Source: a virus
Taxonomy: Duplodnaviria > Caudoviricetes
Strand: one strand, 5' to 3'
Length of the DNA: 64,000 bases
IMG/VR virus record: IMGVR_UViG_2869221657_000003
Location: 1-64,000 of that record
The notes under the pieces are model-generated. The model ran no database searches. It was not told the origin of the DNA and was given only the letters and a program-made list of their open reading frames with translations. Position 1 is the first letter of the stretch; each line of letters begins with the position of its first letter. Position numbers and translations under genes: made by a program. This document shows positions 4,520-42,775 of the stretch, in pieces.

Positions 4520-5684
4520 GGGCCGTCCGCCGCTGCGGATCGGCCAGCACGGCAAGATCTCCCGCACCTATCTCGGTAGCGGGATATGGATGGCGCGCTG
4601 CCGGTACCGCGACGCCGACGGGGTGACCCGAATCGTGGAGCGCCGCGGGCACCCCGACGAGTTTGACAAGCACGGCAAGCTCGCCGAAGACGCCCTCATC
4701 GAAGCCCTCGCCAAACGACAAACACCCGGTGCGCCAGGTCAGATCAGCCTCGACACGAAGGTTTCAGTGCTCGTCGAGGCGCATCTTGAGATGCTGGCTG
4801 AGGCTGGCAAGTCACCGTCCACCATGACGACCTACCGCTCCGCAGCCCGCAAGCTGGCCAAGTTCAGCGACGCGCTGCGAGTCGGGGACGCCACCCCGGG
4901 GCGGCTGGCCGCGGTGATCCGCTCGATGCGGGCGGCCCACGGGGCCAACATGGCGCGCCACGGCCGCACCCTCCTGCGGGGAGCCCTGCAGATCGCGGTC
5001 CTCGACGACGTGTTGGGTCGTAATCCGGTGGCCGAGGTCGGCCGCATCCACTCCGATCGCAAGCCTCAGGGTGCGCCTGCTCTCGACGCTGAGCAGCTCC
5101 GCGACCTGCTGGCCGCCTTGCGTGAGTCCCAGGCGTGCTGGGACGCCGACCTGGTCGACCCGATTACCATGCTGGCCGCTACTGGGCTGCGACGCTCGGA
5201 GCTGCTTGCGCTCCGCTGGGAGGACTACGACGAGGCCGCCAGAACGATCGCCGTCAGCGGCAAGATCGCCCGACTTCCCGGTGAGGGGCTGAAGCGGTTG
5301 GACAGCGGCAAGACGGAGTCGTCGCAACGTGTCGTCGCGCTGCCGGGGTTCGCCGTGTCGATGCTTGCCGAGCGGCGCGGCCGGGCGTTCTGGGGCGAGC
5401 AGACGATGCTGTTCCCGTCATCGGCGGGCGGCTGGCGCGACCTCGACAACTTCGACAAGCAGTGGCGACGCGTCCGAGACGATCTGGGCGTGCCGGAGGT
5501 CACGAGTCACAGCTTCCGCAAGTCGGTGGCGACGCTGATCGACGACGCCGGCCTGTCGGCGCGTATCGGCGCTGACCAGCTCGGCCATGCCAAGGTGTCG
5601 ATGACCCAGGACCGCTACATGCAGCGAGGCAAAGTGCACACCGAGGTGGCCGACGTACTGGACCGCGCCATTAGCGATGAATAA
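4509..5684 (+). CDS. Tyrosine integrase (phiRv2-like)
   Basis: TGLRRSELLALRW, HSFRK, DQLGH, TQDRY catalytic R-H-R-H-Y; ATG at 4509. Confidence 0.92.
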   Translation: MTGRGRPPLRIGQHGKISRTYLGSGIWMARCRYRDADGVTRIVERRGHPDEFDKHGKLAEDALIEALAKRQTPGAPGQISLDTKVSVLVEAHLEMLAEAGKSPSTMTTYRSAARKLAKFSDALRVGDATPGRLAAVIRSMRAAHGANMARHGRTLLRGALQIAVLDDVLGRNPVAEVGRIHSDRKPQGAPALDAEQLRDLLAALRESQACWDADLVDPITMLAATGLRRSELLALRWEDYDEAARTIAVSGKIARLPGEGLKRLDSGKTESSQRVVALPGFAVSMLAERRGRAFWGEQTMLFPSSAGGWRDLDNFDKQWRRVRDDLGVPEVTSHSFRKSVATLIDDAGLSARIGADQLGHAKVSMTQDRYMQRGKVHTEVADVLDRAISDE

Positions 5685-5705: not shown

Positions 5706-5754
5706 TGGTGCCCCCACCAGGGCTCGAACCTGGGACCTGCGGATTAAAAGTCCG
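5706..5754 (-). other. att core: 3' part of tRNA-Lys(UUU)
   Basis: Reverse complement CGGACTTTTAATCCGCAGGTCCCAGGTTCGAGCCCTGGTGGGGGCACCA = anticodon arm, T arm and CCA without D arm or 5' acceptor strand; lies between two integrase genes. Confidence 0.9.
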
Positions 5755-5895
5755 TGAGTTCGACCCCTGCCACAGGGTCGTGTAATGTGTCAAACGCGCA
5801 GTTCAGGGGGCAGTACGGCCCCCGTACGACGTTATGGCAACACCACGTAGTTGACACCTATTGTTGACACCCGACCGGCCTAAGGGGGCTAAGCC

Positions 5896-7209
5896 ATGCC
5901 AGAAACCGACGCAAAGTCTAAGAGACGCCCAAAGGGTGACGGGGCACTTTTCTACGACGAGAAACGCGGCCTGCACATCGGAATTGTGTCCGTCTATGGC
6001 CCGGACGGCAAGCGCCACCAGAAGCGCGTATCGAGCAAGCTGGAGTCCAAGGCGCTAGAGAAGCTGAACAAGCTTCGGGCCGACGTTGTGAACGGAACAG
6101 TGACGGTCACACCGACTGAGATTCGGACGGTGGGCGGCTGGCTGGACTACTGGCTGATCCACATTGTGAAGCCCAGCGTGAAGCCTAGGACGTACGACAG
6201 CTATGCGGCCACGGTGCGGCTTTACCTGAAGCCCGAAATCGGGAAAATCCGATTGGACAAGCTGCAACCCGCGCGTGTGCGCGAGCTGTACACGAAGCTG
6301 CGCTTGCGCGGCACCGCTGATACCAAGCCGTCGACCCGGAACGCGCAGAAAGCGCACCAGGTGCTTAACGCGGCACTTACGCGGGCTGTCAAGGATGGGC
6401 ACTTGAGTCGGAACGTGTGCAAGGCCGTCGACAACCCGAAGCACAAAAAGGCACCGCGTGGCGCTTTCGAGCTGAAGACGGCAGTGCATGTCCTCAAGAC
6501 GGCGGCGGCTCTCGATGACAAGAACATCCCCGGCAAGCCCAAGCTGGCGTCGCGGTGGGTGGCGGCGTTTATGACGGGTGCCCGGCAGGCCGAACTATTG
6601 GGTATGGAACTTGACCGCATTGATTTGGATCAGGGCGTTATGGAAATCTCTTGGCAGCTTCAGCGTATGCACTACACGCACGGCTGCGGGACTAAGGCTA
6701 ACGGTGAACCTAGGTGCGGGAGGCAACGCGTTGGCTATTGCCCGGATCGTAAATGGGGCTTTGATCCGGTGTTCGACTACCGGGACTGCCATCGGTCCTT
6801 AGTGTGGACGCGCCCTAAGTCCTTAGCTGGGGAGCGATGGGTGCCAATGGCTCCGCTGTTGCATGAATCGTTGAAGGTGCATTTGAGGATGGACACCGAC
6901 CCGAATCCGCACGGCTTAGTGTGGCATCACCGGGATGGCAGGCCGATAAGCCAAGAGGACGATAACGAGCAGTGGAACATACTTATTGCAGCTGCCGGGA
7001 TTGAGAAGAAATCCCGCGAGGTCGTGTTGCATGAGGCTCGTAACACGGCGGCGACGATGTTGCTTGAGTCGGGAGTGGACGTGAAGGTGATCCAGAGCAT
7101 TTTAGGCCACGCGTCCATCTTGCAGACGCGGGATTACCAGAGGGTTAATTTGGAGCTGAGTAAGGTTGCGGTGTCGACTGCGTTCGACGCTCTACTGCCC
7201 GACGTTTGA
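5896..7209 (+). CDS. int: Prophage tyrosine integrase
   Basis: TGARQAELLG, LHEARNT, ILGH, TRDY; N-terminal arm-binding region. Confidence 0.93.
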   Translation: MPETDAKSKRRPKGDGALFYDEKRGLHIGIVSVYGPDGKRHQKRVSSKLESKALEKLNKLRADVVNGTVTVTPTEIRTVGGWLDYWLIHIVKPSVKPRTYDSYAATVRLYLKPEIGKIRLDKLQPARVRELYTKLRLRGTADTKPSTRNAQKAHQVLNAALTRAVKDGHLSRNVCKAVDNPKHKKAPRGAFELKTAVHVLKTAAALDDKNIPGKPKLASRWVAAFMTGARQAELLGMELDRIDLDQGVMEISWQLQRMHYTHGCGTKANGEPRCGRQRVGYCPDRKWGFDPVFDYRDCHRSLVWTRPKSLAGERWVPMAPLLHESLKVHLRMDTDPNPHGLVWHHRDGRPISQEDDNEQWNILIAAAGIEKKSREVVLHEARNTAATMLLESGVDVKVIQSILGHASILQTRDYQRVNLELSKVAVSTAFDALLPDV

Positions 7210-8151: not shown

Positions 8152-8547
8152 TCAGAGCGTGGGTATATCGGTGCGTGCGCGCGGCCTGTTACGCCTCCGT
8201 GGCGCGGCCTGTTTTCGCGCCTTCCTAAGCGTCGTCGTCGCTTGAGGGTCCGCGCCCGTCTCCGGCTCCCCAGACGCCAGCTCCCCCGCACGCTCAAGGT
8301 ACGTAATGAGGTCGGCGTTGCTGAGATGCCCGAAGCGCACCAGCAGGTCAACCTTGTCCAGGTCAAAGTGGTCCGCGATCAGCATTAGGTTGGCAACGCT
8401 GTTGAGCACGCCCTTGTCGCGCTGTTCGTAGTAGGTGGAGCGCGAAATACCTAGCGCGCTCAGCGCCTCAGGCATACGCACCTGCCGCTTGAGTAGGTAG
8501 GAAACCACCACAATCAGGTCATTGTCTCGATCATTATTGGCCGACAT
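8152..8547 (-). CDS. Immunity repressor
   Basis: HTH ALSALGISRSTYYEQR; LLVRFG motif; divergent from Cro-like gene. Confidence 0.75.
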   Translation of the reverse strand: MSANNDRDNDLIVVVSYLLKRQVRMPEALSALGISRSTYYEQRDKGVLNSVANLMLIADHFDLDKVDLLVRFGHLSNADLITYLERAGELASGEPETGADPQATTTLRKARKQAAPRRRNRPRARTDIPTL

Positions 8548-8558
8548 GCCGATCAGTC

Positions 8559-8643
8559 TGTCCTATTTTCCGGACACTTACAACCCGTCCGGAACTGCGG
8601 AAACAAGCTTACAAGGTTGTAATTTTGTCCGATTTGTCGGACA
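8559..8643. promoter_or_regulatory. Repressor/Cro intergenic operators (18-bp TGTCCG-N6-CGGACA)
   Basis: TGTCCTATTTTCCGGACA 8559-8576; degenerate copy 8586-8603; TGTCCGATTTGTCGGACA 8626-8643. Confidence 0.7.
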
Positions 8644-8684
8644 AGTTTGAACCAGATCGGAACGGGGTAGGTATCGTTTTTTTC

Positions 8685-8993
8685 GTGCCGACAACCACAA
8701 CCTCCCACACCGACTACACGATCCGGTGGATTCCCCAAGCAGTCGAAAACCTGCTGCACAACAACGACATTATGACCAAGGCTGAACTCGCCTCATTCCT
8801 GGGAGTTGCCAGGTCAACGGTCTACAAGACGTTTGAGGACGACTGGTCGGGTGAAGTCACCACGAAGATGCTCGCCGCGATGTGCAGCCGCTTCGGCGTG
8901 CCGATGAACCGCATTGCTACTGAGCCCGGAAGGGCAGCGGCTAGGCCCACCCGCCGCCGTACGGCTGGCGTAAGTGTCCGGTTAGCCGGATGA
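8685..8993 (+). CDS. Cro-like HTH protein
   Basis: KAELASFLGVARSTVYKTF HTH; GTG at 8685. Confidence 0.7.
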   Translation: MPTTTTSHTDYTIRWIPQAVENLLHNNDIMTKAELASFLGVARSTVYKTFEDDWSGEVTTKMLAAMCSRFGVPMNRIATEPGRAAARPTRRRTAGVSVRLAG

Positions 8994-9220
8994 CGAAGAC
9001 CACACTTCTGGCCGACGAGCCAGATCGGTTGCTAGTCACCCGCCCGGAGGCCGCGCGAATCCTGTCCCTCTCCGAATCTGAGATTGACAACTTGCGGCGG
9101 GCCGGTCGGCTGCAAGCCAAAAGGCACGGAAAGAAAGTTCTGTTCCCGATAGACGAGCTGGAGCGGTTCGTAGCCAACCTGCCTTGGGAAGTGGACCTAC
9201 CTCAGGGTGGGGCCGCGTGA
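8990..9220 (+). CDS. Excisionase-like HTH protein
   Basis: LLVTRPEAARILSLSESEIDNLRRAGRL.AKRHGKKVLF. Confidence 0.75.
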   Translation: MTKTTLLADEPDRLLVTRPEAARILSLSESEIDNLRRAGRLQAKRHGKKVLFPIDELERFVANLPWEVDLPQGGAA

Positions 9221-9603
9221 GCGCCGCGCCGGAAATGCCGCTATGGCTCCAGCTAACCGAGCCCGACACCGAAGCCGTAGAAGACCTCAAATCCGCCTTA
9301 GCGCGGTTAAGAAAGGACGGGTGGACCCGTGGAAAGCTTTACGATTACGAAACAGGCAAGTGCTGTTCTCTTGGGGCGTTCAACCACGCATTCCCCCAGG
9401 AGTCACCCGGCACTCCGTACCTCGCCTATGCCATCCGCACCCGTAAGGGCGGGCACCCGTACCCGGCGGACATGCATGACCTCTTCGTCATCACCCGGTT
9501 CAATGACACGCCTAAGCGGAAGTTCGCCGACGTTGAGGCCGTGTTCCTCGCTGCAATTGCTTACGCGGAAGGTAAGGGCGTTCGTGCTCAACCCGGCACT
9601 TAA
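9217..9603 (+). CDS. Hypothetical phage protein (DUF6197-like)
   Basis: LRKDGWTRG..GKCCSLGA; GTGA overlap. Confidence 0.5.
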   Translation: MSAAPEMPLWLQLTEPDTEAVEDLKSALARLRKDGWTRGKLYDYETGKCCSLGAFNHAFPQESPGTPYLAYAIRTRKGGHPYPADMHDLFVITRFNDTPKRKFADVEAVFLAAIAYAEGKGVRAQPGT

Positions 9604-9684
9604 GGACCTTTGCGTGTCTGTGTTCTGCTTGTTAGTTCTGATCGCGTTCTATGCGGTCATCCTCAACGCATGGTGGGTGAAAGC

Positions 9685-10092
9685 ATGAACTCGAATACCA
9701 CTGCCGTACTCGATGGTTCTATTCCTTCAGATTCGGACGATAGCCCGGTAGTGTTGTTTTCAGAGGGGGGCGAGATGAGAAAGTTTCAAGACGTGATCAG
9801 CGAAATGCGACGGGTAGCATTTCACAATCCCTTGGGCCGGAATACAGCTCCGGAATACACCGAGGATGACGGAGAGCCGTGCTGCTTCGTTGGTCACGCC
9901 CTGAAGCGAATGGGAATCTCGCCCAACTTCAAACTTAACGATTACACCGCATCTGCCCTGCCTTGGGAGTTGTGGGGGATCGAACGCCCGAACTCTTACC
10001 AGCAGCTTTGGATCACTACCGTCCAATCTGCCGCCGACAATGGGAATGCGTGGATTATCAGCATTGCAACCGCTGACGCGCTCCTGATCTAA
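9685..10092 (+). CDS. Hypothetical phage protein
   Basis: ORF in operon orientation; PCCFVGHAL. Confidence 0.5.
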   Translation: MNSNTTAVLDGSIPSDSDDSPVVLFSEGGEMRKFQDVISEMRRVAFHNPLGRNTAPEYTEDDGEPCCFVGHALKRMGISPNFKLNDYTASALPWELWGIERPNSYQQLWITTVQSAADNGNAWIISIATADALLI

Positions 10093-10149
10093 GCTCCGGC
10101 TGCCGTCCGGTAAACAACGGCAAAACTGAATGCATTATATGTGAGTTTG

Positions 10150-10610
10150 AAACTACAGCTGTCACTTACGAAGTAACTCCGTTGACGGAGCGTCCGTGTT
10201 TAGTGTCCGGGCGGCAGAGTGGTTCGCCTGCAAGTAAGCCAGCATTGAATACGTGTGTTTTTACGCACAAGCTCGGGTGTATGGGGTGAGGCTTCCACTT
10301 GCCCCTGACCTGATACATGCCATGAGAAGCCGCGCTATCGGTGGATTAGCAGTATCAGAGGTAGAGACGAGCGAGTGCGGGAGCGCTAGGGCTGGCGGCT
10401 GAGGTCGGCCCCCGTAAGAGCGATCCTGACCCGCCTTTGAGAAGTGAAATGGGGTCAGGCGGTTCCGGTTCGATTCCGGGATAGCGCGCAAGGCCGGAGC
10501 GGTCAGAGCGCTCGGCGAGACGGGCATCTCGCTTAGTTGAGGGGTGCGCGTGACGCAAGGGTGTGGCGTCCGCGCGATCTAAGAATGCGGCTCCCGCTCC
10601 GGCTGATCTT
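10150..10610 (+). ncRNA. Candidate large structured ncRNA with tRNA-like acceptor/T-arm module
   Basis: No credible ORF; several 8-10 bp stems; T-loop TTCGATT (see findings). Confidence 0.45.
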
Positions 10611-10644
10611 TTAAACCGTGTCACCACAACACGAAAGGCCAGTT

Positions 10645-11010
10645 ATGACCTCGATCTATCTGGGAGAGCCCACCGGCCCACGACTCCGCGACCTTTCCCG
10701 GTCGCAAGAGGAGGCCCTTAATGACTGGCTGACGATGGCGTTGATTGCGCCGCCGTCTAAGCGTGACGAACTGCCCGTGGATTACACGCGAGCGCTTAGC
10801 TCGCTGGCTAAGCGGCGCGGTATCCGGTTCTTCTTTAACAGTGACCGTATGCGAGTACGTGGTGAGCACGTCTTGGGTAAGAACCTGCCCGGTTGTGTGG
10901 GCGGCTCTAAGCGAAAGGTGACGCAGCGTGACTACAGCCAAGTGGTTGCGAAATCTGGACCCAAGGTTGCGCCGTACCACGAAAGGGACTGGCGTGACGA
11001 CCGCCTCTGA
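10645..11010 (+). CDS. Hypothetical phage protein
   Basis: RBS GAAAGG, ATG 10645. Confidence 0.55.
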   Translation: MTSIYLGEPTGPRLRDLSRSQEEALNDWLTMALIAPPSKRDELPVDYTRALSSLAKRRGIRFFFNSDRMRVRGEHVLGKNLPGCVGGSKRKVTQRDYSQVVAKSGPKVAPYHERDWRDDRL

Positions 11011-12112
11011 CGCGCTATTGCGTAAGCGCCGCGATGATGCGCGCCGCGCAAAGCTGGAGCTAGACAGGCTCCGTAAAGAGATGTTTGACAATAGGGTACG
11101 GGACAAGTACTCTGAGGATCACCGGAGGTTAGACGCATGGACAAGAGAGAGTGCATTTTGGGATGCGGGTCCTCGTACGCGGAGGAATACCAGCTCCACC
11201 TTCACTACTACGCCTCCGAAAAGGGCATCCTCCCCAACTGCGGTCGGGGAGCTGAGCGAAAGGCACCAGGCCGTAATGCTGACTACAGAGCTGAGGCAGC
11301 CTGAAAAGTTGATGCTTGCGGGCGACTGGCACGGGAATATCCCGTGGGCGCTCAAAGCTATTAACTTCGCTAAGCAGCGGGGCGCGGACACGATCTTACA
11401 TGTTGGCGATTTCGGGTGGTGGTCGGTCGCTAACCCGAGGACGGTTCAGTACCTCGATGTCGTGAGTAACGAGCTTGAGCACACCAATCTTGAGGTGGTG
11501 TGGCTTGACGGTAACCACGAAGATCATTCGTTCTGGCACCAGTTCAATAAGCCGGAATCGTTGCCGATGACGCTCATGTCAGCTCCACGCATTACCCATC
11601 TTCCACGCGGCTTCCGCTGGGAGTGGTGGGGTGACACATGGATGGCCTTGGGTGGTGCTCACTCGGTTGACCGGTCGTTTGCGGTTGAGGGTGAGTCCTG
11701 GTGGCCGGGCGAGTGGATTAATGACGAGCAGCTGAAGTACGCGATGCGGCCCGGCAAGGTTGACATCATCGTGGCGCATGATGCGCCGTCATCAGTCGAC
11801 ATCCCCGGCATAAAGCCGGATGGCCCGATCTATCTCAATATCGACGGGAAGGTCCGCCGGGTGCCGCATACGGACCTGTTGGCCGCTAACGATCATAGGC
11901 GGCGGATTCAAGAGGTCTGCGATGCCGTTAAGCCAGTTGAGTTCTATCACGGTCATTATCACCGCGCCTATAACGCCCTGGGTCGGATTGCTGGTGGTGG
12001 CTACATGAATGTTCGTGGGCTCGATAAGGACGAAACCACGATGGCTAAGAACACGCATTTCATCACGGAAGGTACGAAAGATACCGATGAAGACGACGAA
12101 CTTGCCTGGTGA
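10994..12112 (+). CDS. Metallophosphoesterase (calcineurin-like); start may be 11276
   Basis: GDWHG, VGDFG, DGNHE, HDAP, GHYH motifs. Confidence 0.85.
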   Translation: MTTASDALLRKRRDDARRAKLELDRLRKEMFDNRVRDKYSEDHRRLDAWTRESAFWDAGPRTRRNTSSTFTTTPPKRASSPTAVGELSERHQAVMLTTELRQPEKLMLAGDWHGNIPWALKAINFAKQRGADTILHVGDFGWWSVANPRTVQYLDVVSNELEHTNLEVVWLDGNHEDHSFWHQFNKPESLPMTLMSAPRITHLPRGFRWEWWGDTWMALGGAHSVDRSFAVEGESWWPGEWINDEQLKYAMRPGKVDIIVAHDAPSSVDIPGIKPDGPIYLNIDGKVRRVPHTDLLAANDHRRRIQEVCDAVKPVEFYHGHYHRAYNALGRIAGGGYMNVRGLDKDETTMAKNTHFITEGTKDTDEDDELAW

Positions 12113-15024: not shown

Positions 15025-16458
15025 GTGACGACCTTTTTGCAGCACCTACAGTCGCAGTCCAATACGACGCGCACCGAAAACGGCGACAAGGCCCACAAGT
15101 CTTCGCTTGATCCGGTGGTGGATTACTTCAGCCTGGCGGGCGCTATGCGTTCGCGGGCCGGGGATACCGCTGACCTCTTTGAGGCGGCATACCGTAGCGA
15201 CCCCCTGGCGGCGACTAGGGCGCTTTTCTACCTCCGGGACATCCGTGGGGGCCAGGGCGAGCGTGACGTGTTCTACGCGGGCCTCAAGCGCCTTTTCCAG
15301 CTGTCCCCGGAGAAGTTCGCCCGGAACCTCACTCATGTCCCGTTCTATGGCCGCTGGGATGACCTGTTCATCTTCGGCGCTGAGGTTCCCGCGTCGGTGG
15401 CGGCGCTAATCAATCAGCAGTGGGCGTTGGACGTGGACGGCTACGAGCAGGGCGGCCAGGTGTCACTGTTGGCTAAGTGGCTGCCGTCGCAGAAGACAGG
15501 TTCGGTCAATCCGCTGCGTCGTCAGCTGGCGATCAACGTTCGTGAGGCTCTTGGCTTGTCGCAGCGGGAGTACCGGCAGACCCTTAGCGCGCTTAGGGGT
15601 CGGATCGGCCTGGTGGAGCACGACATGTCGGAGCGCACCTACGAGCACATCGACTACTCGCGGCTCCCGGCCCAGGCGCACCGTAAGCACGTTAAGGCGT
15701 TCCGCCGCAACGACAATGAGCGCTATCAGGCGTTCCTTGATTCGGTGGAGCGCGGCGAGGCGAAGGTGAACACGTCGACCCTGTATCCGTATGAGCTGTT
15801 TGACCTGGTGCAGACCGACGCTAAGGCGGCGGACGTGCTGTGGAAGAACCTGCCGGATTACACGCGGCCCGGCCAGGATGCCCTTGTGCTGCCTGACGTG
15901 TCGGGTTCGATGTGGGGCCGTCCCATGTCGGTGTCGGTGTCGCTGGCTCTGTACTTCGCTGAGCGCAACACGGGTCCGTACAAGGGCTACTTCCTGTCGT
16001 TCGATACGACGCCCAAGCTGGTTAAGGTGCCGGAGAGCGGGGGCTTGGCGTCCAAGCTGTCCGCGATTGAGTACCACACGCGCAACTGTGGGTCCACGAA
16101 CCTTGAGGCGGCGTTTGACGCGATCCTTAAGGCGGGCGTGGCGTCGGGGACGGTGCCGAAGGTGCTCTACATCGTGTCGGACATGCAGTTCAACTCGGCT
16201 CTGAACCATGCTGACGCGTCGGTTTTCGAGTCGGCCAAGTTGTCGTTTAACGAGGTTGGTTTGGAGTTGCCGCACGTCGTGTTCTGGAATGTGAATGCGC
16301 GGCACGATCAGCTTCCGGCGACGATCATGGATGGCAATGTGACGTTGGTGTCTGGTTTGGCGGCTACGACGTTCAGCATGGCGGTGGAGGGTAAGTCCCC
16401 CCGCGAGCTGGTGGATAGCGTGCTGAACAGTGAGCGGTACGCCCAGATCACTCTCTGA
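15025..16458 (+). CDS. DUF2828 family TROVE/Ro60-related vWA protein
   Basis: TRTENG, RDIRGGQGER, YGRWDDL, LLAKWLPS, TLYPYE, MIDAS DVSGSM, SDMQF, VFWN, LVSG motifs. Confidence 0.8.
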   Translation: MTTFLQHLQSQSNTTRTENGDKAHKSSLDPVVDYFSLAGAMRSRAGDTADLFEAAYRSDPLAATRALFYLRDIRGGQGERDVFYAGLKRLFQLSPEKFARNLTHVPFYGRWDDLFIFGAEVPASVAALINQQWALDVDGYEQGGQVSLLAKWLPSQKTGSVNPLRRQLAINVREALGLSQREYRQTLSALRGRIGLVEHDMSERTYEHIDYSRLPAQAHRKHVKAFRRNDNERYQAFLDSVERGEAKVNTSTLYPYELFDLVQTDAKAADVLWKNLPDYTRPGQDALVLPDVSGSMWGRPMSVSVSLALYFAERNTGPYKGYFLSFDTTPKLVKVPESGGLASKLSAIEYHTRNCGSTNLEAAFDAILKAGVASGTVPKVLYIVSDMQFNSALNHADASVFESAKLSFNEVGLELPHVVFWNVNARHDQLPATIMDGNVTLVSGLAATTFSMAVEGKSPRELVDSVLNSERYAQITL

Positions 16459-16610: not shown

Positions 16611-16744
16611 TGGACCCCCACAGCAATAAAATTCTTCCACTGATAAATGGCGAGGTAGCGGGTTCGACTCCCGCAGCTCTTACGGTTTTCACCGTAAGGG
16701 TTTAGCTCATCGGCTAGAGCGCGTATAGAAAAAACAGGGGTCCA
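16611..16744 (+). ncRNA. YrlA-like Y RNA (permuted tRNA-like domain), unit 2
   Basis: TGGACCCC/GGGGTCCA stem; T arm 16658-16674, loop-closed acceptor stem 16675-16702, D arm 16703-16721. Confidence 0.75.
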
Positions 16745-41375: not shown

Positions 41376-41449
41376 GCGCGGGTAGCTCAGTTGGTTAGAG
41401 CACTGCCCTGATAAGGCGGGGGTCCGGGGTTCAATTCCCTGCTTGCGTA
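41376..41449 (+). tRNA. tRNA-Ile(GAT)
   Basis: CTGCC-CTGATAA-GGCGG. Confidence 0.88.
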
Positions 41450-41516
41450 CGCGTTTATTTGTCAGTAGCGCGAGGTATTGACGTTTTATTGACCGGTAGC
41501 ACAATTAGGCGGGTAC

Positions 41517-41660
41517 ATGTCAGATAAGACGTTTTATCGGTTATGCACAGCGTGGGTGATCTTTATGGCCGTGCTGATTACGATTCCGGTGGCTACCGGG
41601 GTTGTTGGGGTGGTTTACCACTTGTTTGATCCGGATTGCCCAACGGTGATCTGCACTTAG
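41517..41660 (+). CDS. Small membrane protein (47 aa)
   Basis: Manual translation; one hydrophobic helix. Confidence 0.4.
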   Translation: MSDKTFYRLCTAWVIFMAVLITIPVATGVVGVVYHLFDPDCPTVICT

Positions 41661-41702
41661 ATATACACACACGTATTCAATGCTGGCTTACTTGGGGGTG
41701 GA

Positions 41703-42395
41703 GTGTCTAAGGTTCTTAGCCTGTATGGCACTCGTAGCTCACAGTTTTGGTCTGAGGCTCCGGCCAAGATGGACGCGTTGAATCTGCGTGCGATCTTCCC
41801 ATCGGATAACGCGTTCGGCTTCCCTGATCTGGAGCGGTGTGATTGGGTGCCTGATTATCTGGGTGCTTGGCATATGCCGCGTCAGCGTGAGCGTGCAGCT
41901 CGGGAGAACGGCGCTATTCATTTCTTTTTGGACGACTACCGCTTTGAGACTGCGTTTACGAGCCCTGAGAGGACCGTAGGCAGAGTTTTGGCGGTGGGTG
42001 GGGCACTGACCCCCGATTTCAGTTTGTGGCGTGACATGCCGCGTGCAGCGCAGATTTGGAACGTGTACCGGTCCCGTTGGTGTGGGGCGTTCTGGCAAGG
42101 CCAGGGCGTGAGGGTCATTCCTACTGTGTGCTGGGCTCGTCCGGACACGTACGACTTCTGCTTTGAGGGGTTGCCTCGCGGCGGCGTGGTGGCTGTGTCT
42201 GCGTTGGGTGTGCGTGCGACTGAGGAAGATCAGACGTGGTTCCAGATGGGGCTAAGTGAGATGGTGTCTCGGCTTGAGCCGGCGATTGTGCTTAGCTATG
42301 GGAAGTTGCGTTATGTGGAGGGTTTGGATTTGCCTGTGGTGAAAGAGTTTCCGACGTTTTGGGATGAGCGCCGTAAGGTGCTTAAGGGAGAGTAA
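41703..42395 (+). CDS. DUF4417 domain protein
   Basis: HFFLDDYRFE, LTPDFSL..DMP.A.QIWN.YRSRW.GA.WQ..G..VIPTV.W. Confidence 0.85.
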   Translation: MSKVLSLYGTRSSQFWSEAPAKMDALNLRAIFPSDNAFGFPDLERCDWVPDYLGAWHMPRQRERAARENGAIHFFLDDYRFETAFTSPERTVGRVLAVGGALTPDFSLWRDMPRAAQIWNVYRSRWCGAFWQGQGVRVIPTVCWARPDTYDFCFEGLPRGGVVAVSALGVRATEEDQTWFQMGLSEMVSRLEPAIVLSYGKLRYVEGLDLPVVKEFPTFWDERRKVLKGE

Positions 42396-42699: not shown

Positions 42700-42775
42700 G
42701 CCGCTGTGGCTGAATGGTTAGGCTGCCGCCCGCAAAGCGGTTTATTCCGGTTCGATTCCGGGGGGGGGGGCGGCT
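42700..42775 (+). tRNA. tRNA-Cys(GCA), 3' acceptor strand obscured by G11 run
   Basis: GCCGC-CCGCAAA-GCGGT; T arm TCCGG-TTCGATT-CCGGG. Confidence 0.6.

What the first reader, a model, noticed from the sequence alone, without database searches (positions are those of the whole stretch)
10150..10610. Large ORF-free structured region with a tRNA-like acceptor/T-arm module and an expanded interior
Seen: CGCGCTATC (10331-10339) pairs with GATAGCGCG (10480-10488), abutting a canonical T arm TCCGG-TTCGATT-CCGGG (10464-10480). Inside are hairpins GGGCTGGC/GTCGGCCC (10389-10411) and CCTGACCC/GGGTCAGG (10425-10459), with no D arm or 7-nt anticodon loop. A second domain is closed by GCCGGAGCGG/CCGCTCCGGC (10493-10603). 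An upstream CCTGACC (10304-10310) could compete for GGTCAGG, suggesting alternative folds. Inference: an unrecognised phage ncRNA, either a tRNA-like processing or decoy element or part of a large ornate RNA.
Basis: partly seen in the sequence, partly recalled or inferred. Interest (0 to 1): 0.7.

Follow-up and report, generated by a model that had tools for sequence, protein, structure and literature searches.

The report
Phage tRNA-like antisense RNA locus
A 550-base gene-free stretch in a mycobacterial prophage holds a conserved, folded RNA with a tRNA-shaped middle part and a single-stranded tail that is the exact antisense of the leader of a phage gene 31 kb away, which points to an undescribed phage RNA regulator.

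Summary
The window holds a cluster-L-type mycobacteriophage prophage. The finding fills the gap 10093-10644 in its early lytic operon. That gap exists in all 93 cluster-L phage records found, and nobody has annotated it as RNA. Rfam and ARAGORN find nothing in it.

It has three RNA domains, each supported by compensatory base changes:
- A (10167-10258): three hairpins plus a single-stranded tail.
- B (10383-10488): a tRNA-like four-way junction with a canonical T arm and an acceptor stem. Some relatives encode ACCA after it.
- C (10493-10603): a closed domain with two invariant loops.

Its 9-bp closing helix (10331-10339) is unlikely by chance but occurs only in this prophage. The acceptor strand conserved in 18 relatives is 10383-10389.

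The new result concerns the tail of A. In every lineage it has an exact inverted copy of 23-29 nt beside the tRNA cluster, usually just before the ribosome-binding site of a DUF4417 "nuclease" gene (window 41667-41694). The tail differs between lineages, and each distal copy follows its own tail.

Best reading: a processed antisense RNA locus, with the tRNA-like part acting as an RNase P/Z processing module. No expression data were found. It is a new variant of a known kind.

The parts
10167..10231 (+). Domain A scaffold: outer helix 10167-10170/10252-10255 and three hairpins (10177-10181/10186-10190; 10191-10198/10207-10213; 10214-10221/10225-10231, with invariant loop region AGUGGUUCGCC)
   Evidence: RNAalifold on 13 sequences. 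Pair counts: 98.8% of cells paired against 33-39% when partners are slid, 5 pairs with compensatory change, covariation score 0.253 against 0.128 in shuffles, 0/500 shuffles as high. This is the only part of the gap that blastn detects in most cluster-L records, at about 91% identity.
10231..10258 (+). Single-stranded tail of domain A (candidate antisense seed), CAAGTAAGCCAGCATTGAATACGTGTGT
   Evidence: 28-nt exact reverse complement at 41667-41694; the next longest such match in the window is 12 nt. Lineage-specific versions each match their own distal copy.
10261..10382 (+). Variable linker/leader.
   Evidence: Alignments and extracted sequences. Other lineages carry one hairpin of unrelated sequence here, such as CCCCACCC/GGGTGGGG or CTATGGGC/GCCCATAG.
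10383..10488 (+). Domain B, tRNA-like four-way junction: acceptor 10383-10389/10481-10487, arm 1 10389-10411, arm 2 10425-10459, T arm 10464-10480, discriminator G10488
   Evidence: Acceptor 7/7 paired in 18 relatives with 3 compensatory pairs. T stem has 3 of 5 compensatory pairs and a canonical TTCGATT loop. ACCA follows in L3 and L4 phages. Arm 2 is replaced by a degenerate cloverleaf in Douge and MkaliMitinis3.
10493..10603 (+). Domain C: closing helix 10493-10502/10594-10603; hairpin 10514-10520/10527-10533 with invariant loop CGGGCA; hairpin 10553-10556/10566-10569 (extended by 10546-10550/10571-10575) with invariant loop AAGGGUGUG
   Evidence: CGGGCA hairpin: 7/7 paired in 5 distinct versions, 5 of 7 pairs compensatory. 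AAGGGUGUG hairpin: 4 of 4 pairs compensatory, and the loop is kept even in the shortened L1 version. Closing helix covaries.
10604..10644 (+). U-rich tract after the closing helix (TGATCTTTTA), then the conserved CA-rich 5'UTR and ribosome-binding site (CACCACAACACGAAAGG) of the gene starting at 10645
   Evidence: Alignment; weak terminator-like call at 10588-10605.
41667..41694 (+). Distal partner: the + strand here is the exact complement of the domain A tail. It ends at the ribosome-binding site GGGGGTGGAG of the DUF4417 'nuclease' gene (GTG 41703-42395)
   Evidence: Gene family: PF14386 at 1.1e-61 and phrog_940.

Best explanation
The gap is a conserved three-domain noncoding RNA locus inside the early rightward operon of cluster-L mycobacteriophages.

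Domain A is an antisense regulator. Three covarying hairpins present a single-stranded tail of 23-29 nt. That tail forms a perfect duplex with the + strand transcript that runs from the phage tRNA cluster into the DUF4417 'nuclease' gene. In most lineages the duplex ends immediately 5' of that gene's ribosome-binding site.

Domain B is a tRNA-shaped junction (acceptor stem stacked on a canonical T arm). I infer that the host tRNA-end enzymes (RNase P at the 5' side, RNase Z or RNase E and the CCA-adding enzyme at the 3' side) recognise it. They would cut the polycistronic early transcript there and release or stabilise the flanking RNA domains.

Domain C is a closed, protein- or RNA-binding 3' domain. 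Its GC-rich closing helix plus U-rich tract may also attenuate read-through into the downstream genes.

The outcome of the A-target duplex is inferred. The likeliest outcomes are RNase III cleavage of a long perfect duplex, a block of translation, or both, tying expression of the tRNA/nuclease transcript to early transcription.

Shown here: conservation, helices with compensatory change, and co-variation between the two loci.
Inferred: transcription of the gap, processing, and direction and sign of regulation.

My odds:
- Functional structured RNA: 0.85.
- Tail and distal site interact as RNA: 0.65.
- tRNA-like module is a processing or stability signal: 0.45.
For: 1. Context. The gap lies after the cro-like and small early genes and before a gp45-like gene and a metallophosphoesterase, all on the + strand. 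The same order holds in DyoEdafos, Faith1 and others.
2. No sigma-70-like promoter was found in 8300-11200, which fits co-transcription with the early operon.
3. Structure. Domain A: 98.8% of cells paired, 5 compensatory pairs, 0/500 shuffles reach the covariation score. T stem 3/5, acceptor 3/7, CGGGCA hairpin 5/7 and AAGGGUGUG hairpin 4/4 pairs with compensatory change, with essentially all cells paired.
4. Indels of 1-2 nt and wholesale replacement of hairpins between lineages argue against a coding region.
5. Two-locus co-variation. There are four tail versions (window/L4, L2, L3, L1) differing at about 8 columns including an indel. Each is matched exactly by its own inverted copy about 29-31 kb away: window 28 nt; DyoEdafos 26; Douge 26; Chaser 25; Bromden 28 nt at 93% identity, the one inexact copy; five L2 phages 23; four L3 phages 24-25; LeBron and DirkDirk 27; a further phage contig 29.
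6. Own duplexes are -41 to -49 kcal/mol. Duplexes between different tail versions are -22 to -35.
7. In the window the 28-mer is a clear outlier; the next longest complementary match is 12 nt.
8. The distal site ends 8-13 nt before the nuclease start codon in the window, Faith1, Whirlwind and LeBron.
9. The acceptor plus T-arm minihelix and encoded ACCA (L3, L4) are the features tRNA-end enzymes are known to need (established knowledge of RNase P and RNase Z substrates; anatomy).
Against: - No transcript data exist for this prophage or, as far as I could find, for any cluster-L phage, so transcription, ends and processing are untested.
- In L4 phages two tRNA genes lie between the distal site and the nuclease gene. 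Occlusion of the ribosome-binding site therefore cannot be the universal mechanism.
- The nuclease start codon already sits in a predicted hairpin, so the sign of regulation is open.
- Identical 23-29-bp DNA sites could instead be bound by a protein.
- The 3' end after the acceptor is ACCA only in L3/L4. It is ACTG in L2 and GCAA in L1 and the window.
- In the window the homologous acceptor has a G-A mismatch at pair 7, and a competing distal strand exists.
- Whole-region thermodynamic folding is only weakly better than shuffles (z = -1.72).
Confidence: 0.5

Rival explanations
1. The region is a cis-acting leader or attenuator for the downstream genes (the gp45-like gene at 10645 and the metallophosphoesterase at 10928-12112). 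It folds into alternative structures or binds a factor. The GC-rich closing helix of domain C plus its U-rich tract terminates or pauses early transcription, and the conserved loops set read-through or translation of the next gene. This can coexist with the antisense function of domain A.
For: Domain C ends 30-40 nt before the next start codon. In every lineage it is followed by a U-rich tract and a conserved CA-rich 5'UTR. The LeBron homologue of the phosphoesterase was too toxic to clone (PMC13148394), so tight control of this gene would make sense. No separate promoter was found for the downstream genes.
Against: A branched 110-nt domain is not a typical intrinsic terminator, and the terminator scan gave only background numbers (3 found, 2.7 expected). 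Pairing between the AAGGGUGUG loop and the CA-rich UTR is not kept across lineages (5-7 bp, broken in window, L3 and L4; my reading). This rival does not explain the tRNA-like module or the co-varying distal site.
Confidence: 0.2
2. Domain B is a working tRNA mimic rather than a processing signal. It would be charged, CCA-tailed or modified, and would act as a decoy or substrate for host tRNA-directed enzymes, for example anticodon nucleases or other tRNA-targeting defences, or it would deliver an amino acid outside translation.
For: Canonical T loop TTCGATT, 7-bp acceptor and encoded ACCA in L3/L4. Nested degenerate tRNAs in two relatives show the locus is tRNA-derived.
Against: There is no D arm and no conserved anticodon-like loop. 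Arm 1 differs completely between L3 and the other lineages, its loop triplet changes from CUG to CCG in Tourach, and arm 2 is hypervariable. Pair 3:70 is G-C, so the alanine identity pair of tmRNA is absent. The 3' tail is not CCA in L1, L2 or the window.
Confidence: 0.12
3. The features act as DNA. The two inverted 23-29-bp copies are binding sites for one phage DNA-binding protein or recombinase, and the gap is an origin or another DNA-level site. The stem covariation would then reflect hairpins in single-stranded DNA.
For: Exactly two copies per genome in inverted orientation. Origins and regulatory sites often lie in large gene-free gaps of early regions (general knowledge).
Against: The tail begins exactly at the foot of a covarying RNA hairpin, and the distal copy ends exactly at a ribosome-binding site. 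Those boundaries make sense for RNA, not for a protein site. A protein site would rarely need 23-29 contiguous identical bases whose 3' extent varies by lineage. The site has no dyad symmetry. A canonical tRNA T loop and an ACCA end have no DNA-level rationale.
Confidence: 0.08
4. The region is a decaying remnant of tRNA genes with no present function.
For: A tRNA-derived T arm identical over 18 nt to that of a broken tRNA at 42745-42762. Degenerate nested tRNAs in Douge and MkaliMitinis3.
Against: The region is retained in all 93 cluster-L records with compensatory changes in at least seven helices and with invariant loops. Domain A is more conserved at DNA level than the rest of the gap.
Confidence: 0.03
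5. The region is the Y-RNA partner of the phage's Ro-like (DUF2828) protein.
For: A Ro-like RNA-binding gene lies 4.4 kb downstream at 15025-16458. Bacterial and mycobacteriophage Y RNAs contain tRNA-like domains (PMC4201824).
Against: No YrlA match here even at E up to 10. The domain order is not the permuted T arm, closed acceptor, D arm of YrlA. A YrlA-like candidate lies directly after the Ro-like gene at 16636-16744 (28.3 bits, below the gathering score).
Confidence: 0.03

Closest known systems
C4 antisense RNA of phages P1 and P7 (Rfam C4 family; accession from memory, not checked here)
   Same: Phage-encoded antisense RNA cut out of a longer operon transcript. The C4 precursor is an RNase P substrate with tRNA-like features. 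It acts by base pairing on a transcript of the same phage to control a gene whose timing matters (from my own knowledge of the P1/P7 immunity literature).
   Different: No sequence or structure match (Rfam, E up to 10). C4 is about 77 nt and the antisense bases lie in its own loops. Here the seed is a 23-29-nt tail of a separate domain upstream of the tRNA-like module, the target lies about 30 kb away, and a third 110-nt domain follows.
tRNA-like processing modules joined to other RNAs: MHV68 TMERs (tRNA-miRNA-encoded RNAs) and MALAT1/mascRNA
   Same: A non-decoding tRNA mimic is used as a handle for RNase P or RNase Z to set the ends of an adjacent functional RNA (from my own knowledge).
   Different: Those are eukaryotic or herpesviral, and TMERs rely on pol III promoters inside the tRNA-like part. 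Here the host is a bacterium and processing is only inferred.
tRNA spacer or trailer RNAs that pair with sRNAs (E. coli 3'ETS-leuZ sponge)
   Same: In Whirlwind and DyoEdafos the distal partner begins 2-5 nt after a tRNA-Lys gene, and in DyoEdafos it fills the spacer up to tRNA-Ser. It could therefore be released by tRNA processing and pair with a regulatory RNA.
   Different: The 3'ETS-leuZ system is chromosomal and Hfq-dependent with short imperfect pairing. Here pairing is perfect over 23-29 nt, and which partner regulates which is unknown.
YrlA / bacterial Y RNAs (RF02553)
   Same: A tRNA-like domain with a T arm inside a larger noncoding RNA; the family is present in mycobacteriophages that encode Ro-like proteins (PMC4201824).
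   Different: No model match, different order of arms, and not adjacent to the Ro-like gene, which has its own YrlA-like candidate.
tmRNA tRNA-like domain
   Same: Acceptor plus T arm without a normal D stem or anticodon arm, enclosing a large interior; ACCA end in some lineages.
   Different: ARAGORN and Rfam are silent. Pair 3:70 is G-C, not G-U. There is no tag reading frame and no pseudoknot series, and the interior is only about 90 nt.

Membership tests
tRNA (RF00005) | Model match at or above the gathering score, or an ARAGORN call | tested here: not met
   No hit in 9900-10900 even at E up to 10, and no ARAGORN gene in the gap in the window or in 7 relatives. Only the nested insert of Douge scores 36.2 bits.
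tRNA (RF00005) | 7-bp acceptor stem stacked on a 5-bp T stem with a 7-nt T loop | tested here: met
   Acceptor 7/7 in 18 relatives and 6/7 in the window. T stem 5/5 everywhere, with loop TTCGATT (TGCAATC/TGCAACC in L3). Both stems covary.
tRNA (RF00005) | D arm, and an anticodon arm with a 7-nt loop carrying U33 | tested here: not met
   Arm 1 is an 8-9-bp hairpin whose loop (GGCUGAG or ACCUGAG) lacks U33 and is replaced entirely in L3. Arm 2 is hypervariable with 7-19-nt loops.
tmRNA | G3-U70 pair, tag reading frame, pseudoknots, model match | tested here: not met
   ARAGORN (which also seeks permuted tmRNA) and Rfam are silent. Pair 3:70 is G-C in all five versions.
YrlA / Y RNA-like (RF02553) | Model match; permuted order of T arm, closed acceptor, D arm; Ro-binding terminal stem; location beside the Ro gene | tested here: not met
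   No match at E up to 10. The acceptor is closed by distant strands, not by a loop. The Ro-like gene is 4.4 kb away and has its own candidate at 16636-16744.
C4 antisense RNA (P1/P7) | Match to the Rfam model | tested here: not met
   No Rfam match of any family in the gap beyond three noise hits with E above 0.2.
C4 antisense RNA (P1/P7) | RNase P processing of the precursor and antisense action on a transcript of the same phage | not testable with these tools
   Antisense complementarity is shown. Processing and regulation need experiments.
Large ornate RNAs (GOLLD, ROOL, raiA, OLE) | Match to the Rfam models | tested here: not met
Trans-acting antisense sRNA (functional class, not a sequence family) | Accessible seed complementary to a target transcript, with complementarity kept through sequence change | tested here: met
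   The tail is unpaired in the consensus fold apart from 4 weak outer pairs. Four tail versions are each exactly matched by their own distal site.
Trans-acting antisense sRNA (functional class, not a sequence family) | The RNA is expressed and changes expression of the target | not testable with these tools
   No RNA run holds the stretch. The runs laid were DNA contigs.

The most novel reading that the evidence does not exclude
Cluster-L mycobacteriophages carry a previously unrecognised composite RNA gene. A tRNA mimic acts as built-in punctuation that excises two structured RNAs from the early operon. One of them is a chaperone-independent antisense RNA whose long perfect duplex with the tRNA-cluster/DUF4417 transcript forms a timing switch between early transcription and the tRNA/nuclease module. 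This would be the first regulatory RNA circuit described in a mycobacteriophage, in a host group that lacks Hfq.
Probability: 0.4. Interest if true: 0.8.

Novelty: new variant of a known kind. Interest (0 to 1): 0.7.

Why it matters
More than 90 sequenced cluster-L mycobacteriophages, widely used in teaching and in host-range and phage-therapy work, carry this 350-450-nt locus. It is either left unannotated or given small lineage-specific ORFs. I found no paper describing it in the library searched.

If the reading holds, it gives:
- A testable case of phage-internal RNA-RNA regulation in mycobacteria, which have no Hfq or ProQ.
- A bacterial example of a tRNA mimic used as a processing handle for neighbouring RNAs.
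- A handle on the unknown role and timing of the DUF4417 'nuclease', and on expression of the highly toxic phosphoesterase just downstream.
- A reason to correct the spurious ORF calls in the gap.

The two-locus co-variation is unusually clean comparative evidence, and it can be tested directly with compensatory mutations made by standard phage recombineering.

Tried and rejected
- Rfam at gathering scores over the whole window, and at E up to 10 over 9900-10900: only noise in the gap.
- ARAGORN on the window and 7 relatives: nothing in the gap.
- Homologues outside cluster L: none among 401 genomes of the host's family (one 35-nt T-arm-like hit in an unpublished genome, G069, was not used). 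None in genome contigs or metagenome contigs for domain A words.
- Twelve further viral contigs that match the 17-mer of the AAGGGUGUG hairpin are chance matches in unrelated contexts.
- Expression: no RNA holder listed. The four runs laid were DNA contigs. Two of them are related phage genomes that again carry domain A and its inverted copy.
- Promoter scan: no sigma-70-like site in 8300-11200. By eye I found no convincing mycobacterial -10 element before domain A.
- MAFFT plus RNAalifold on domain C gave register shifts and a doubtful interior. I replaced it by loop-anchored extraction of the helices.
- Pairing of the AAGGGUGUG loop with the CA-rich 5'UTR of the next gene: not kept across lineages, so dropped.
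- Hairpin 10389-10411 as an anticodon arm reading CUG: rejected. It has no U33, the triplet changes in Tourach, and the arm is replaced in L3.
- Two-piece or minimal tmRNA: rejected (see the membership test).
- Literature: the LeBron overexpression screen and the survey of candidate viral structured RNAs do not mention this locus. DUF4417 remains uncharacterised.

Full report
Where the finding lies. The window carries a prophage next to tRNA-Lys (5706-5779): tyrosine integrase 5896-7209, then a divergent repressor/cro-type region and small rightward genes. DNA searches place it among cluster-L mycobacteriophages (Lclasvirinae), all isolated on M. smegmatis. The finding fills the gap 10093-10644, between the last small early gene (9610-10092) and a gp45-like gene (10645), which is followed by a metallophosphoesterase (10928-12112). 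The same gap, 440-480 nt long, sits at the same place in DyoEdafos, Faith1, Douge, Bromden, Chaser, Whirlwind, Bazzle, Rumpelstiltskin, Lumos, LeBron and others. Queries taken from two relatives each find it in 93 phage records. Annotators leave it empty or place small ORFs in it that are not shared between lineages (LeBron gp44, Krypton555 gp43, CELFI).

Check of the observation. Rfam finds nothing in the gap, either at gathering scores or at E up to 10, and ARAGORN finds no tRNA or tmRNA there. I compared 19 distinct versions of the gap, covering subclusters L1 to L4 and the window. The T arm is clearly real: seven different stem versions all pair 5/5, three of the five pairs show compensatory changes, and the loop is the canonical TTCGATT, or TGCAATC/TGCAACC in L3. 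The closing helix of the second domain is real too: window and L4 have GCCGGAGCGG/CCGCTCCGGC, L2 has GGCCGGGAGG/CCTCCCGGCC, and L1 has a shorter AGCCGGGG/CCCCGGCT. It is unlikely by chance (6.5e-4 of dinucleotide shuffles). However, its 5' strand lies in an insert that the window shares only with Whirlwind, and the homologous Whirlwind bases cannot pair. In all 18 relatives the perfect 7-bp partner of the strand that abuts the T arm is GCGATAC, GCGATAT, GCGATGG or GCGATGA. These are homologous to window 10383-10389 (GCGCTAG), and pairs 4, 6 and 7 show compensatory changes. In the window this conserved strand pairs 6/7. Its last base, G10389, more plausibly opens arm 1. Energy alone does not separate the two closures (-61.5 against -62.9 kcal/mol). 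So the window may have two competing closures, but only the proximal one has comparative support.

Anatomy.
- Domain A (10167-10258) has a short outer helix and three hairpins. On 13 sequences, 98.8% of cells pair, against 33-39% when partners are slid. Five pairs carry compensatory changes, and no shuffle of 500 reaches the covariation score. After the third hairpin comes a tail that is unpaired except for four weak outer pairs.
- A variable linker follows. Most lineages have one hairpin of unrelated sequence there. The window and Whirlwind have a longer insert.
- Domain B is a four-way junction: acceptor, arm 1 (10389-10411; same place but different sequence in L3), arm 2 (10425-10459; hypervariable) and the T arm. 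The bases after the acceptor read ACCA in L3 and L4, ACTG in L2, and GCAA in L1 and the window.
- In Douge and MkaliMitinis3, arm 2 is replaced by a whole degenerate cloverleaf (Rfam tRNA 36.2 and 26.2 bits). The window's T arm is identical over 18 nt to that of a broken tRNA at 42745-42762. So the module is tRNA-derived.
- Domain C (10493-10603) has the closing helix, a hairpin with invariant loop CGGGCA (7/7 paired in five versions, five compensatory pairs) and a hairpin with invariant loop AAGGGUGUG (four of four pairs compensatory; kept even in the shortened L1 version).
- A U-rich tract and a conserved CA-rich 5'UTR lead into the next gene.

The second locus. A search of the host genome with the gap found one other match: 28 nt, exact and inverted, at window 41667-41694. 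Within the window the next longest complementary match is 12 nt. The 28 nt are precisely the tail of domain A. They begin at the foot of the third hairpin. On the + strand at the distal site their complement ends at the GGGGGTGGAG ribosome-binding site of a DUF4417 gene, called 'nuclease' in PHROGs, which starts at 41703. I then searched each relative's genome with its own tail:
- Five L2 phages have an exact 23-nt inverted copy.
- Four L3 phages have 24-25 nt.
- LeBron and DirkDirk have 27 nt.
- L4 phages have 25-28 nt. Bromden's 28 nt is at 93% identity; the other L4 copies are exact.
- A further phage contig found among public runs has 29 nt.
The tail differs between lineages at about eight columns, including an indel, and each distal copy follows its own tail. 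Own duplexes are -41 to -49 kcal/mol, and duplexes between different tail versions are -22 to -35. The flanks of the two copies are unrelated. In Faith1, Whirlwind, LeBron and the window, the distal site ends 8-13 nt before the nuclease start codon. In Whirlwind and DyoEdafos it begins 2-5 nt after a tRNA-Lys gene. In DyoEdafos two tRNA genes have come to lie between it and the nuclease. Two short sequences 30 kb apart cannot stay identical through that many changes without selection. The boundaries (hairpin foot, ribosome-binding site) point to selection on RNA pairing rather than on a protein-binding DNA site, though the latter is not excluded.

How it most likely works. No promoter-like site lies in 8300-11200, so the gap is probably transcribed with the early operon from the cro-side promoter. 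I propose that host tRNA-end enzymes recognise the acceptor/T-arm minihelix of domain B. That is the known minimal substrate for RNase P and RNase Z, and ACCA is encoded in two lineages. The enzymes would cut the polycistronic RNA there. This would set the 3' side of the piece carrying domain A and the 5' side of domain C. Domain A then acts as an antisense RNA. Its long perfect duplex with the tRNA-cluster/DUF4417 transcript would be an RNase III substrate, and in most lineages it would also crowd the ribosome-binding site. The L4 arrangement argues that cleavage or stability is the common denominator, not occlusion. The direction could also be reversed: the tRNA spacer or trailer, released by tRNA processing, could titrate or trigger cleavage of the early transcript. 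Domain C, with its invariant loops and terminal helix plus U tract, probably binds a factor or attenuates read-through into the next genes. One of those genes was too toxic to clone in LeBron (PMC13148394). All processing and regulatory steps are inferred. No RNA data could be found.

Comparison with known systems. The locus is not a tRNA, tmRNA, YrlA, C4 RNA or large ornate RNA by model match or by defining features (see the membership table). The phage's Ro-like DUF2828 protein (15025-16458) has its own YrlA-like candidate directly downstream (28.3 bits). In function it most resembles the C4 antisense RNA of P1/P7, which is excised by RNase P and acts on a transcript of the same phage. In architecture it resembles tRNA-like processing handles such as the MHV68 TMERs or MALAT1/mascRNA. 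The link to a tRNA spacer recalls the 3'ETS-leuZ sponge. These comparisons rest on my own knowledge of those systems, not on tests made here.

Verdict. The finding is a real, conserved and so far undescribed structured RNA locus. The interpretation 'unrecognised phage ncRNA with a tRNA-like processing element' is plausible. The added two-locus co-variation gives it a concrete, testable function. No claim in this report rests on the unpublished genome G069.

Noticed in passing
window 42700-42775 (+): A degenerate tRNA-like gene between the DUF4417 gene and tRNA-Asn. It has a D-arm-like GCTGAATGGTTAGGC, a T arm identical over 18 nt to that of the finding (42745-42762), and an acceptor 3' strand interrupted by a run of about ten G. 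Neither ARAGORN nor Rfam calls it.
   Followed up: partly
window 16636-16744 (+): Sub-threshold YrlA (Y RNA-like) match, 28.3 bits against a gathering score of 69, E 5e-4 in a local search. It lies directly after the DUF2828/DUF7788 Ro-like gene 15025-16458, in line with an earlier first-reader note.
   Followed up: partly
L016 (phage Douge) 1005-1077; L028 (phage MkaliMitinis3) 488-552: A complete but degenerate cloverleaf is nested inside the tRNA-like module in place of arm 2. Douge scores 36.2 bits on the Rfam tRNA model, with three acceptor mismatches and an 8-nt anticodon loop (TTATAAGA). MkaliMitinis3 scores 26.2 bits. Neither is annotated or called by ARAGORN.
   Followed up: partly
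window 41700-41735 (+), and the homologous sites in L043 and L044: The GTG start codon of the DUF4417 gene lies inside a predicted hairpin (GAGUGUC...GGCACUC in the window). A comparable hairpin is predicted in Faith1 and Whirlwind, so translation initiation of this gene may be structurally gated.
   Followed up: no
window 41376-41703 compared with L024 (DyoEdafos 65189-65948): Compared with DyoEdafos, the window's prophage lacks the tRNA-Gln, Gly, Lys(ctt), Ser and Ala genes between tRNA-Ile and the nuclease gene. It keeps the 28-nt antisense site that sits in that array in DyoEdafos.
   Followed up: no
window 10620-10644 and homologues: A CA-rich conserved 5'UTR (CACCACA..CACGAAAGG) precedes the gp45-like gene in all lineages. 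It is partly complementary to the invariant AAGGGUGUG loop of domain C, but the pairing is not kept in every lineage.
   Followed up: partly
L004 (Faith1) about 4960-5015 and other L2/L3 phages: Just upstream of domain A the motif GAAGTAAC (GAACTAAC in L3) occurs twice, about 20 nt apart, around a TTGACC. It could be a protein-binding site or part of a promoter; the window has only the second copy.
   Followed up: no
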